Source: a virus (taxonomy: Duplodnaviria > Heunggongvirae > Uroviricota > Caudoviricetes). Taken from it: DNA of 8,362 bases. Position 1 is the stretch's first letter, and each line of letters opens with the position of its first letter. A model generated the notes under the pieces. It did no database searches, was not told the origin of the DNA, and worked only from the letters and a program-made list of their open reading frames with translations. The translations under genes and the position numbers were made by a program. Of the stretch, positions 7,684-8,199 are shown in pieces. Location of the stretch: positions 1 through 8,362 of the IMG/VR virus record IMGVR_UViG_2675903621_000020, one strand, 5' to 3'.

Positions 7684-8199
7684 GTGATCGCTGAATTAAC
7701 GGCAGCAATGACGGCTATTCGTGAAACCGCCCAGATTGCAAAACTAATGAACGAGGCAAAAACTCAAGCTGAAGTAAATGCGGCTATTGGTGAACTGAAC
7801 TCAAAGCTTGCATCTATTCAGCGCGAATGCGTGTCTCTCGTTGAGCTGGTGGGCACTTATCAAGAAATAAATGCTTCTCTCAAAGCTAAAATTGCAGAAT
7901 TTGAAAACTTTGAGGCTCAGACGGAAGGTTATATCCTTAGCCAACTTGAGTCGGGAACTTTTGTGTACTCGAAGGAGGTAACCGTGAACGGCGGCAGCAT
8001 AATCATGCATCTTTGTCCAAAATGTTTTGGACAAAAGATAGTATCGATACTTCAGCCATTCCCGGTTAGAGAATATGAATTTTTTCATAAAAGCAGGTGC
8101 CTGTACTGTGAAAATCAGTTTCTTATGAATAAAAATCCGGATTACGTATCGCCTCCATCTCTTGAAGAGTTGGCCAGAAAACTGAACGGCAATCTGTAG
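7684..8199 (+). CDS. Hypothetical protein (~171 aa): N-terminal coiled-coil-like helix region plus C-terminal CxxC-x24-CxxC zinc-ribbon-like motif
   Basis: Track ORF 7450-8199. Best start is GTG 7684 with AAGAG 8 nt upstream (alternative ATG 7708); the upstream 78 codons are P/R-rich, span the repeats and have no ribosome-binding site. N-terminal half is A/E/K/Q-rich with heptad-like periodicity; C-terminus has CPKC…CLYC. Stop TAG at 8197-8199. No homolog recognised. Confidence 0.6.
   Translation: MIAELTAAMTAIRETAQIAKLMNEAKTQAEVNAAIGELNSKLASIQRECVSLVELVGTYQEINASLKAKIAEFENFEAQTEGYILSQLESGTFVYSKEVTVNGGSIIMHLCPKCFGQKIVSILQPFPVREYEFFHKSRCLYCENQFLMNKNPDYVSPPSLEELARKLNGNL

What the first reader, a model, noticed from the sequence alone, without database searches (positions are those of the whole stretch)
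7684..8199. Divergently transcribed coiled-coil plus zinc-ribbon protein of unknown function
The N-terminal ~90 aa look like an amphipathic coiled coil. The C-terminal ~70 aa carry CPKC…(24)…CLYC, a treble-clef/zinc-ribbon-like arrangement. The gene is AT-rich relative to the backbone and reads away from the int-xis-exonuclease operon across a repeat-rich region, the layout expected for a moron, exclusion or regulatory gene. It does not fit the DksA/TraR C4 signature.
Basis: partly seen in the sequence, partly recalled or inferred. Interest (0 to 1): 0.5.

Follow-up and report, generated by a model that had tools for sequence, protein, structure and literature searches.

The report
Rip1-type pore-forming antiphage prophage gene
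This small prophage gene is a relative of Rip1, a recently described one-protein antiviral defence that detects ring-shaped proteins of an invading phage and punches a pore in the cell membrane; it sits in the classic "sieB" exclusion slot of a lambda-like prophage and is overlapped by a conserved antisense RNA.

Summary
A 171-codon ORF (GTG 7684 to TAG 8199, + strand) encodes about 80 residues of amphipathic helix followed by a β-rich domain with CPKC-24-CLYC. It is conserved under purifying selection (dN/dS 0.17-0.25), and the four Cys are kept in 139-141 of 142 diverse relatives.

Its function is no longer unknown. It belongs to the Rip1 family ("ring interacting pore 1", Patel et al., Nature 2026):
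- Profile against PDB 9oox (phage HK446 Rip1 bound to T6 small terminase): E = 1.6e-15.
- BLASTP: 27-30% identity to HK446 gp37 and Pseudomonas JBD30 gp30.
- A confident AlphaFold model matches only 9oox.

Like HK446 rip1, P22 sieB and lambda sieB, the gene lies antisense inside the early-left operon, here between DUF1391 and DicF/dicB.

The "repeat-rich" upstream region is a homologue of the P22 sas antisense RNA, which no Rfam family covers. In viral contigs this element precedes at least 27 unrelated cargo gene families.

The most likely mechanism is an abortive-infection pore templated by small-terminase or portal rings. That mechanism is inferred from homology and was not tested here.

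Verdict: a new member of a known kind, of moderate interest.

The parts
7684..8199 (+). Rip1-family ORF, 171 aa, GTG start and TAG stop. Identical to WP_000559929.1.
   Evidence: Homology to HK446 Rip1 (PDB 9oox). PHROG 1244, E = 2.7e-56.
7684..7920 (+). N-terminal amphipathic helical region, residues 1-79 (helices 2-24 and 28-79). By homology this is the pore-forming part.
   Evidence: AlphaFold secondary structure. Hydrophobic periodicity of 106 degrees and no transmembrane stretch. Review description of the Rip1 N-terminus.
7933..8136 (+). C-terminal β-rich domain, residues ~84-151, with four Cys at codons 8014-8016, 8023-8025, 8098-8100 and 8107-8109 and the conserved S-I-L-Q motif. By homology this is the ring-binding part.
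   Evidence: Residue-by-residue alignment to Rip1 C121/C124/C148/C151.
7644..7649 (+). Predicted -10 element (GTTAAT) of a sieB-type promoter. The predicted transcription start is near A7656. The Shine-Dalgarno AAGAG is at 7671-7675.
   Evidence: Positional homology to the annotated P22 sieB promoter and mapped RNA start. Several homologues have TATAAT at this position. The simple consensus scan did not detect it.
7565..7688 (-). sas-like antisense RNA, a homologue of P22 sas. It covers the start codon, Shine-Dalgarno sequence and promoter of the ORF. Both ends are approximate and set by homology.
   Evidence: 84 of 126 bases are identical to the published P22A-sas sequence, with the elements in the same order. 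No Rfam family matches.
7614..7639 (-). Hairpin 1 of the sas-like RNA: 11-bp stem with three G-U pairs and a GGGG loop.
   Evidence: The hairpin forms only on the minus strand: summed MFE -510 against -285 kcal/mol, and 64 against 18 G-U pairs. Eight of 11 pairs show compensatory changes, and 0 of 500 shuffles reach the observed score.
7583..7613 (-). Invariant 3' element of the sas-like RNA: CCACCUCGCCUGACGUGGUAAAAAGCAGGCA. It can form a GCCUG/CAGGC hairpin and possibly a CCAC/GUGG pseudoknot.
   Evidence: No covariation could be measured because the search pattern fixed these stems.
7624..7669 (.). Two exact 13-nt direct repeats, TCCCCAACAACAA, at 7624-7636 and 7657-7669. They are the stem-loop cores of the two sas hairpins, and the second lies in the 5' UTR of the ORF.
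   Evidence: The two copies change together between phages.
8201..8226 (.). Inverted copy of 7647-7672, immediately after the stop codon. It contains the palindrome TGGATATCCA.
   Evidence: It is conserved after the stop codon in the Salmonella, Cronobacter and Symbiopectobacterium homologues. Function unknown.

Best explanation
The ORF encodes a Rip1-family single-protein antiphage defence carried by a lambda-like prophage integrated at tRNA-Ser.

Shown here:
- It is homologous in sequence and fold to HK446 Rip1, the protein solved by cryo-EM as a ring around the phage T6 small terminase.
- It has the family architecture: N-terminal amphipathic helices and a C-terminal four-Cys β domain.
- It occupies the slot that HK446 rip1, HK620 hkaP, P22 sieB and lambda sieB occupy, antisense within the early-left operon.
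- It has a sieB-type promoter region and is overlapped by a sas-type antisense RNA gene.

Inferred from the published Rip1 work:
- The lysogen makes the protein constitutively from its own promoter, and the protein is harmless by itself.
- Late in a superinfection, the invader's oligomeric ring (small terminase or portal) binds the C-terminal domains.
- About twelve copies are templated into a ring, and their N-terminal helices form a pore in the inner membrane.
- The cell is killed or lysed before progeny phage are complete (abortive infection).

My own inference:
- When the resident prophage is induced, early-left transcription runs antisense through the gene.
- Together with the sas-like RNA, which covers the Shine-Dalgarno sequence and start codon, this lowers its translation.
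- That would limit self-killing, as sas does for sieB in P22.
For: - Sequence: the profile of 20 homologues against PDB hits 9oox_L 'ring interacting pore 1 (Rip1)' at E = 1.6e-15 over residues 8-151 against 18-160 of 164, with all four Cys aligned. BLASTP gives 27% identity and E = 5e-13 to HK446 gp37, and 30% identity and E = 7e-20 to JBD30 gp30. hhalign probability is 98.2%.
- Fold: the AlphaFold model has mean pLDDT 86.9. Foldseek against PDB returns only 9oox chains L and M below E = 0.1 (6e-7 and 9e-7; TM normalised to target 0.52 and 0.71).
- Family size: 2238 clusters at 50% identity with E <= 1e-3, nearly all 145-180 aa and matched over their full length. The Cys and the Y83, G91, Y95 and SILQ motifs are conserved.
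- Selection: dN/dS is 0.17-0.25.
- Distribution: the gene is present in 682 of 5426 complete E. coli genomes, always chromosomal.
- Context: it is antisense to the neighbouring phage genes in HK446, HK620, JBD30 (between the small and large terminase genes), Cronobacter, Salmonella and Symbiopectobacterium prophages.
- Published mechanism, as summarised in the review PMC13434031, the meeting report PMC12908700 and PMC13601566: the N-terminal amphipathic helix forms the pore, the C-terminal half contacts the terminase ring, 12 Rip1 surround 11 small terminase subunits, Rip1 is not toxic alone, and escape mutants map to portal or small terminase.
- Regulation: the P22 sieB promoter and RNA start annotation, the published sas sequence, its homology to window 7565-7690 on the minus strand, and hairpin covariation.
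Against: - No function was tested here.
- Identity to the characterised Rip1 proteins is only 27-30%, so the trigger, and even pore formation, could differ.
- The model is a monomer, and its helix orientation differs from the assembled state (TM normalised to query only 0.39-0.55).
- Zinc binding is assumed from four invariant Cys. I could not check whether 9oox contains a metal.
- I could not read the primary Nature paper. Mechanistic details come from a review and from PDB titles.
- The simple consensus scan found no promoter or terminator for the ORF. The promoter and the transcription start are placed by homology to P22 only.
- I found no convincing promoter for the sas-like RNA inside the ORF. 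Its expression in this prophage is therefore unproven.
- PADLOC 2023 has no model that matches.
Confidence: 0.75

Rival explanations
1. It is a true Rip1 homologue whose function has diverged. It might sense a different oligomer, act without forming a pore (for example by sequestering the terminase), or serve the prophage's own lysis or packaging control rather than defence.
For: - Identity to the characterised Rip1 proteins is only 27-30%.
- The last ~20 residues (PPSLEELARKLNGNL) have no counterpart in HK446 or JBD30 Rip1.
- The Enterobacteriaceae clade is distinct from the HK446/HK620 clade, even though both use the same locus.
Against: - The match runs the full length of the protein.
- Every conserved family motif is retained, including the four Cys and the N-terminal helices.
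- The gene has the same prophage slot and the same antisense orientation as the characterised HK446 gene.
- The family is reported to be widespread in prophages as a defence.
Confidence: 0.17
2. It is a zinc-ribbon nucleic-acid-binding or transcription regulator, the first reader's 'regulatory gene' option. It would dimerise through a coiled coil and control early-left or immunity genes.
For: - It has a four-Cys ribbon-like motif and long helices.
- It lies close to the immunity region.
- There are weak, below-threshold Pfam hits to coiled-coil families and to RNA polymerase zinc-ribbon subunits.
Against: - No Pfam, NCBIfam or PDB hit to any regulator passes threshold.
- The only significant structural and sequence match is Rip1.
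- In Pseudomonas Mu-like phages the homologue lies between the terminase genes, not near regulatory genes.
Confidence: 0.03
3. It is a decaying, no longer functional gene in a crippled prophage, where an IS element has been inserted next to it.
For: - An IS3-family element starts 80 bp after the stop codon.
- The insertion cuts the early-left operon off from the immunity region.
- The prophage belongs to the Qin/DicB type, which is often cryptic.
Against: - The ORF is intact and 100% identical to the copy in O55:H7 genomes that lack the IS.
- dN/dS is 0.17-0.25.
- The promoter region and the upstream element are intact.
- The IS lies outside the gene and outside its flanking inverted repeat.
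Confidence: 0.05

Closest known systems
Rip1 (ring interacting pore 1) of Escherichia phage HK446 (gp37; PDB 9oox, in complex with phage T6 small terminase) and of Pseudomonas aeruginosa Mu-like prophages (for example JBD30 gp30). Patel et al., Nature 2026.
   Same: - Length is 164-171 aa.
- The architecture is the same: N-terminal amphipathic helices and a C-terminal β domain with four aligned Cys and the SILQ motif.
- The sequence match is significant and runs the full length, and it is the only fold match.
- The gene is prophage-borne and antisense to its neighbours.
- For HK446, the genomic slot (the sieB locus of the early-left operon) and the upstream sas-like element are also the same.
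   Different: - Identity is only 27-30%.
- It belongs to a separate Enterobacteriaceae clade and has an extra C-terminal tail of about 20 residues.
- It uses a GTG start.
- The flanking genes are of the Qin/Rac type (DUF1391, DicF, dicB) rather than N, ral and cIII.
- Trigger specificity and activity are untested.
SieB superinfection exclusion protein of phages P22 and lambda (Pfam PF14163) with its sas antisense RNA
   Same: - It occupies the same locus in the same orientation: the + strand between the early-left genes.
- It has a homologous promoter region and a homologous overlapping antisense RNA.
- Like SieB, it is a prophage-expressed abortive or exclusion function.
   Different: - The proteins are unrelated.
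- There is no PF14163 hit and no transmembrane segment, whereas SieB is a membrane protein.
- No esc-like internal start with a ribosome-binding site is evident.
HK620 hkaP ('putative superinfection exclusion protein', Clark et al. 2001 annotation) and PHROG 1244 (unknown function)
   Same: It is a member of the same protein family. tblastn gives 28.8% identity to hkaP and E = 1e-12. The PHROG 1244 match has E = 2.7e-56. The locus is the same.
   Different: These are annotation labels only. No experimental function is attached to either.

Membership tests
Rip1 (ring interacting pore 1) antiphage family | Significant full-length sequence homology to an experimentally characterised Rip1 | tested here: met
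   Profile against 9oox_L: E = 1.6e-15, residues 8-151 against 18-160. BLASTP: E = 5e-13 to HK446 gp37 and 7e-20 to JBD30 gp30. hhalign: 98.2%.
Rip1 (ring interacting pore 1) antiphage family | Same fold as the solved Rip1 chain | tested here: met
   The AlphaFold model has pLDDT 86.9. Foldseek against PDB returns only 9oox_L and 9oox_M as significant hits, E = 6e-7 and 9e-7, TM normalised to target 0.52 and 0.71. The next hit has E = 0.12.
Rip1 (ring interacting pore 1) antiphage family | Small single protein with an N-terminal amphipathic helix and a C-terminal ring-contacting domain | tested here: met
   171 aa, with helices 2-24 and 28-79 followed by six β strands. Hydrophobic periodicity is 106 degrees and there is no transmembrane segment. 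Four Cys are conserved in 139-141 of 142 relatives. The architecture is as described in the review.
Rip1 (ring interacting pore 1) antiphage family | Prophage-encoded as its own transcription unit | tested here: met
   It lies in a lambdoid prophage at tRNA-Ser and is antisense to its neighbours. The same holds in HK446, HK620, JBD30, Cronobacter, Salmonella and Symbiopectobacterium.
Rip1 (ring interacting pore 1) antiphage family | Protects against phage by abortive infection and is not toxic alone | not testable with these tools
   This needs plating and growth assays.
Rip1 (ring interacting pore 1) antiphage family | Binds oligomeric small terminase or portal rings and assembles into a roughly 12-mer membrane pore | not testable with these tools
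   No multimer prediction or biochemistry is available here. This is known only for HK446 Rip1 with T6 small terminase (PDB 9oox title; review).
SieB (Pfam PF14163) | Match to the SieB profile and a membrane-protein character | tested here: not met
   There is no PF14163 hit at E <= 1, whereas genuine SieB cargo at the same locus scores 1e-25 to 1e-29. There is no hydrophobic stretch of 15 or more residues.
DksA/TraR C4 zinc finger (Pfam PF01258) | Match to the profile, with CxxC-N17-CxxC at the end of a coiled coil | tested here: not met
   There is no Pfam hit. The Cys spacing is 24 and the Cys lie within a β domain.
P22 sas antisense RNA (for the upstream element 7565-7688, minus strand) | Sequence homology to P22 sas and the same position, overlapping the start codon and 5' UTR of the + strand gene | tested here: met
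   84 of 126 bases are identical to the published P22A-sas sequence, with the elements in the same order. The P22 region lies upstream of sieB. Lambda carries it too.
P22 sas antisense RNA (for the upstream element 7565-7688, minus strand) | Conserved RNA secondary structure on the antisense strand | tested here: met
   For hairpin 1, eight of 11 pairs show compensatory changes. 91.8% of cells are paired against 33-44% when the partners are slid, and 0 of 500 shuffles reach the observed score. The minus strand is strongly favoured. The two 3' stems are invariant, so they are uninformative.
P22 sas antisense RNA (for the upstream element 7565-7688, minus strand) | It is transcribed and represses or switches translation of the overlapped gene | not testable with these tools
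   No expression data exist for this prophage. No clear promoter was found inside the ORF.

The most novel reading that the evidence does not exclude
The sieB-type promoter plus the sas-type antisense RNA form a conserved, portable control cassette. It marks a cargo hotspot in the early-left operon of lambda-like phages of Enterobacteriaceae.

The same roughly 70-105-nt element precedes at least 27 unrelated small ORF families. These include Rip1-like genes, two SieB types, and about two dozen families with no Pfam match.

Under this reading, most of these cargo genes would be uncharacterised lysogen-expressed defence or exclusion genes. The antisense RNA would be a general self-immunity switch that silences whichever cargo is present when the resident prophage enters lytic growth.

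The window's Rip1-like gene, with its additional flanking inverted repeat, would be one such cassette.
Probability: 0.4. Interest if true: 0.65.

Novelty: new member of a known kind. Interest (0 to 1): 0.4.

Why it matters
The result gives a function-level hypothesis to a gene that RefSeq labels 'hypothetical' and that is present in about one in eight complete E. coli genomes, including the O55:H7/O157:H7 lineage. The hypothesis is a Rip1-type pore that aborts infection when it meets the ring-shaped packaging proteins of an invading phage. This bears on phage therapy and on phage typing of pathogenic E. coli, because it predicts which phages fail and where escape mutations arise (small terminase or portal).

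It also links the newly described Rip1 family to the 30-year-old sieB/sas system. Rip1 genes of coliphages sit in the sieB slot and inherit its antisense RNA. That suggests how a prophage could keep such a suicide device from firing during its own induction. It also points to a defined locus where further defence genes could be mined.

Tried and rejected
- Pfam, NCBIfam and PADLOC scans of the protein gave only sub-threshold coiled-coil noise. PHROGs gave only 'unknown function'.
- The word-indexed homologue search found only Enterobacteriaceae 'hypothetical proteins'.
- I first read the conserved ~105 nt upstream as a + strand 5' leader. I considered a pseudoknot riboswitch, a P1 c4-like repeat and antisense arrangement, a CsrA or Hfq site, an SD-sequestering hairpin, and an extended -10 promoter in the short form.
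- Rfam gave nothing at the gathering thresholds or at E <= 10.
- Strand-specific folding and G-U counts showed that the hairpin belongs to the minus strand. The published P22 sas sequence then explained it. The + strand leader ideas were dropped.
- The simple promoter and terminator scan found no site for the ORF.
- I looked for a promoter for the sas-like RNA inside codons 2-15. Only a weak GTTAAT at 7700-7695 on the minus strand was found, and I make no claim for it.
- An esc-like internal start (M9 at 7708, or M22) has no ribosome-binding site and is not conserved in HK446 or JBD30, so I do not propose one.
- The primary Rip1 paper could not be opened by DOI or PubMed id, and no preprint was found.
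- The exact junction between the prophage and the IS was not found in any complete E. coli genome, so the source strain was not identified.
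Full report
**Setting**

The window is E. coli chromosome carrying the left end of a lambda-like prophage. From left to right it contains:
- an intimin-like gene fragment (340-1524, minus strand);
- tRNA-Asn (1766-1838, minus);
- mtfA (1939-2775, minus);
- tRNA-Ser (2830-2916, plus);
- integrase (2972-3997, minus);
- a DUF4224 excisionase-like gene (3997-4200, minus);
- an 805-aa exonuclease (4259-6676, minus);
- a DUF1482 gene (6769-6957, minus);
- dicB (6954-7142, minus);
- the DicF small RNA (7317-7368, minus; Rfam 77 bits);
- the ORF in question (7684-8199, plus);
- an IS3-family insertion sequence from 8280.

These assignments rest. Window 6600-8279 is 100% identical to E. 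coli O55:H7 strains. In those strains, which lack the IS, the next genes are a DUF1391 gene, an HTH repressor, a Cro/CI-type regulator and a YdaT family gene.

**Checking the observation**

The ORF exists as described. It is annotated in RefSeq as WP_000559929.1, a hypothetical protein of 171 aa starting at the GTG.

An alignment of 20 homologues from Escherichia, Salmonella, Cronobacter, Enterobacter and Symbiopectobacterium (50-97% identity) shows three things:
- The first residues, MIAEL(T/S)AAM, are conserved.
- Cronobacter has an ATG at this position.
- An AAGAG Shine-Dalgarno sequence lies 8 nt upstream.

GTG 7684 is therefore the start, not ATG 7708. The 249-aa ORF from ATG 7450 is an over-extension.

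C111, C114, C139 and C142 are invariant in these 20 sequences. They are present in 139-141 of 142 diverse representatives of the wider family.

An AlphaFold model built on this alignment is confident, with mean pLDDT 86.9. It shows helices at 2-24 and 28-79 followed by a six-stranded domain that carries the two CxxC pairs.

The helical part has a hydrophobic periodicity of 106 degrees, and the protein has no transmembrane stretch.

dN/dS against the PhiR49_1, Salmonella and Symbiopectobacterium genes is 0.17-0.25.

The claim of AT-richness is marginal. The ORF is 42.2% GC, against 46.9% for the window, 43.5% for int and 40.9% for dicB.

**What it is**

Curated libraries did not identify the protein:
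- Pfam, NCBIfam and PADLOC (2023) give nothing above noise.
- PHROGs places it in phrog_1244, 'unknown function'.

The solved-structure sequence library did. The profile of the 20 homologues matches chain 9oox_L, 'ring interacting pore 1 (Rip1)', at E = 1.6e-15 over almost the full length, with the four Cys aligned.

Further comparisons agree:
- Foldseek of the model against PDB returns only 9oox chains L and M as significant (E = 6e-7 and 9e-7; TM normalised to target 0.52 and 0.71). It names the entry as the cryo-EM structure of Escherichia phage HK446 Rip1 in complex with the phage T6 small terminase.
- Direct BLASTP to HK446 gp37 gives 27% identity over 150 residues, E = 5e-13.
- Direct BLASTP to gp30 of Pseudomonas phage JBD30 gives 30% identity over 153 residues, E = 7e-20.
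- Profile-to-sequence hhalign gives 98.2% probability.
- An exhaustive profile search finds 2238 clusters at 50% identity with E <= 1e-3. Nearly all are 145-180 aa and match end to end.

The family shares L66, Y83, G91, Y95, the four Cys and an S-I-L-Q motif. The window protein has all of them.

**What Rip1 does, from the literature**

I could not open the primary paper (Patel et al., Nature 651:1060, 2026). I rely instead on a 2026 review (PMC13434031), a meeting report (PMC12908700) and a citing paper (PMC13601566). They report the following:
- Rip1 is a prophage-encoded single protein that is not toxic alone.
- Escape mutations map to the portal of Pseudomonas phages and to the small terminase of E. 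coli phages.
- Twelve Rip1 monomers form a ring around an 11-mer small terminase ring.
- The N-terminal part is an amphipathic helix, and the C-terminal half contacts the terminase.
- The complex forms a pore that releases dye from liposomes and makes holes in cells.
- The result is premature lysis late in infection.
- Relatives are widespread in proteobacterial prophages.

**Genomic position**

The gene is always antisense to its neighbours:
- In HK446, rip1 (gp37) lies on the opposite strand between N and the ral/cIII/kil genes of the early-left operon.
- HK620 hkaP, a family member, lies in the same place and was annotated in 2001 as a 'putative superinfection exclusion protein'.
- JBD30 gp30 lies antisense between the small and large terminase genes.
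- A Cronobacter prophage has exactly the window's layout: int, DUF4224, exonuclease, Gam, KilR, then the gene antisense, then DUF1391, the repressor and YdaS/YdaT.
- Salmonella and Symbiopectobacterium homologues are likewise antisense to their neighbours.

The gene occurs in 682 of 5426 complete E. coli genomes, always on the chromosome.

**The 'repeat-rich region' upstream**

While checking start codons I saw that about 105 nt upstream of the ORF is conserved in DNA. This holds even between genes whose proteins are only 27% identical, such as the window gene against HK446 and HK620.

A pattern taken from its invariant core is TGCCTG N6-10 CCAC N TCAGGC N3-4 GTGG.

The ORF that follows the element varies:
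- 76 complete ORFs fall into 27 unrelated clusters.
- The largest cluster is Rip1-like, with 19 members.
- Two clusters are SieB (PF14163, E = 1e-25 to 1e-29).
- One representative (a 76-aa protein) gave only below-threshold zinc-ribbon hits; of the seven other non-SieB representatives scanned, six gave no Pfam match and one only a below-threshold coiled-coil hit.

Blastn of the element against annotated phages hit the region just upstream of the P22 sieB promoter. Phage lambda carries the same sequence in front of its sieB, which lies on the + strand between ral and N. The window gene therefore occupies the classical sieB slot.

Several lines of evidence identify the element as a homologue of the P22 sas antisense RNA:
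- Rfam has no family for it.
- The main hairpin folds far better on the strand opposite the ORF. The summed MFE is -510 against -285 kcal/mol, and there are 64 against 18 G-U pairs.
- RNAalifold and pair counts give compensatory changes in 8 of 11 pairs. 91.8% of cells are paired against 33-44% for slid partners, and 0 of 500 shuffles reach the observed covariation score.
- A 2026 RNA-seq paper prints the sequence of the P22 sas antisense RNA (PMC13397905, Table 2).
- That sequence is the reverse complement of this element. It starts two bases beyond the complement of the sieB start codon. It runs through two hairpins with CUGUAGGGG cores. It ends with CCACCGAGCCUGACGUGGUUAAAAGACAGGCA.
- The window's minus strand from 7690 to 7565 aligns to it with 84 of 126 identities and the same order of elements.

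The two exact 13-nt direct repeats in the window (7624-7636 and 7657-7669) are the cores of the two sas hairpins. They change together between phages.

By homology to the P22 annotation (promoter at 29690-29720, RNA start at 29727), three features can be placed in the window:
- The ORF's promoter -10 is GTTAAT at 7644-7649. Several homologues have TATAAT there.
- The transcript starts near A7656.
- This gives a 28-nt leader that contains the second repeat and the Shine-Dalgarno sequence.

In P22, sas is reported to pair with the sieB translation start and to switch translation, and it is needed for proper SieB exclusion (review text).

The two 3' stems (GCCUG/CAGGC and CCAC/GUGG) never vary in my set. 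The search pattern fixed them, so they are untested.

**Mechanism**

- **Shown:** homology in sequence and fold to Rip1, the family architecture and motifs, purifying selection, the prophage sieB-slot position, and the presence of a sas-type antisense element with a conserved structure.
- **Inferred from homology:** the lysogen expresses the protein. Rings of an invading phage's small terminase or portal bind the C-terminal four-Cys domain and template a roughly 12-mer. The N-terminal amphipathic helices of that assembly form an inner-membrane pore, which aborts the infection.
- **My own inference:** on induction of the resident prophage, early-left transcription runs antisense through the gene. 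Together with the sas-like RNA it lowers translation and limits self-killing.
- **Effect of the IS in this window:** the IS3-family element at 8280 separates the early-left promoter region from the gene, the sas element, DicF and dicB. This antisense input, and DicF/dicB induction, may therefore be lost, while the gene's own promoter remains intact.

**Rivals**

- A diverged Rip1 homologue with another trigger or mode of action cannot be excluded at 27-30% identity.
- A regulator role has no support.
- Gene decay is contradicted by the intact ORF, the low dN/dS and the identity to IS-free strains.

**Novelty and score**

The protein is a new member of a known kind. It is an unannotated clade of the Rip1 family in Enterobacteriaceae prophages, including the O55:H7/O157:H7 lineage.

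The more interesting by-product concerns the locus. Coliphage rip1 genes sit in the sieB slot and share the sas antisense RNA. That element is absent from Rfam and marks a locus with at least 27 different cargo families.

Interest is 0.4. The broader cassette and hotspot reading has a probability of about 0.4 and would deserve about 0.65 if true.

Noticed in passing
window 7565-7688 (minus strand); also L214 1503-1613 (P22) and L215 598-682 (lambda): The conserved element upstream of the ORF is a homologue of the P22 sas antisense RNA. It has two hairpins with co-varying cores and an invariant 3' element, CCACC..GCCUG..GUGG..AAAAG.CAGGCA. No Rfam family covers it. The hairpin shows compensatory changes in 8 of 11 pairs, on the strand opposite the ORF.
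   Followed up: yes
loci L094-L213 (IMG/VR contigs matched by the pattern): The sas-like element comes in a short form with one hairpin and a long form with two repeats. It precedes at least 27 unrelated ORF families: Rip1-like, two SieB types, a 76-aa protein with only below-threshold zinc-ribbon hits, a 106-aa hydrophobic protein, and many small proteins with no Pfam match. This looks like a cargo hotspot at the sieB locus of lambda-like phages.
   Followed up: partly
window 7647-7672 and 8201-8226: A 26-nt inverted repeat, 81% complementary, brackets the ORF. Its core is the palindrome TGGATATCCA. One copy lies between the predicted -10 and the transcription start, and the other lies just after the stop codon. 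The downstream copy (GGGATATCCAGATT) is also present 4-46 nt after the stop codon in the Salmonella, Cronobacter and Symbiopectobacterium homologues. Its function is unknown. It could be an operator pair, a long-range RNA pairing or a cassette boundary.
   Followed up: partly
window 7317-7368 (minus) and 6954-7142 (minus): A full-length DicF small RNA (Rfam RF00039, 77 bits) lies upstream of dicB. The Rip1-like gene lies antisense where ydfB and ydfC sit in the Qin prophage operon as I recall it. That comparison was not checked here.
   Followed up: no
window 8280-8362: This is the left end of an IS3-family insertion sequence, present at up to 50 copies per E. coli genome, with an orfA starting MTKNTRFSP at 8335. 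It is inserted 80 bp after the ORF's stop codon. The exact junction is found in none of 5426 complete E. coli genomes. The insertion separates the early-left promoter and DUF1391 side from the Rip1-like gene, the sas element, DicF, dicB and the exonuclease.
   Followed up: partly
window 7450-8199 (plus); L005 4237-4965: The 249-aa ORF from ATG 7450 is an artefact of an open frame across the sas-like element. The GenBank record of phage PhiR49_1 annotates the equivalent over-extended 243-aa ORF.
   Followed up: yes
window 4259-6676 (minus): The 805-aa exonuclease has a long acidic, low-complexity middle section. Its Cronobacter counterpart carries the Pfam families YdfE_N and YdfE_C. It is unusually large for a lambdoid early-left exonuclease.
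   Followed up: no
window 2830-2916 (plus) next to int 2972-3997 (minus); tRNA-Asn 1766-1838 (minus): The prophage is integrated next to a tRNA-Ser gene beside mtfA, which is the likely attachment site. To the left, the intimin-like gene (340-1524) is part of an Ig-like adhesin gene that RefSeq marks as a pseudogene with an internal stop in O55:H7.
   Followed up: no
L001 14112-15071 and 15443-15598 (O55:H7 prophage, beyond the window): The same prophage carries a SIR2 family gene and hokD further to the right. These are further candidate defence or toxin genes in one element.
   Followed up: no
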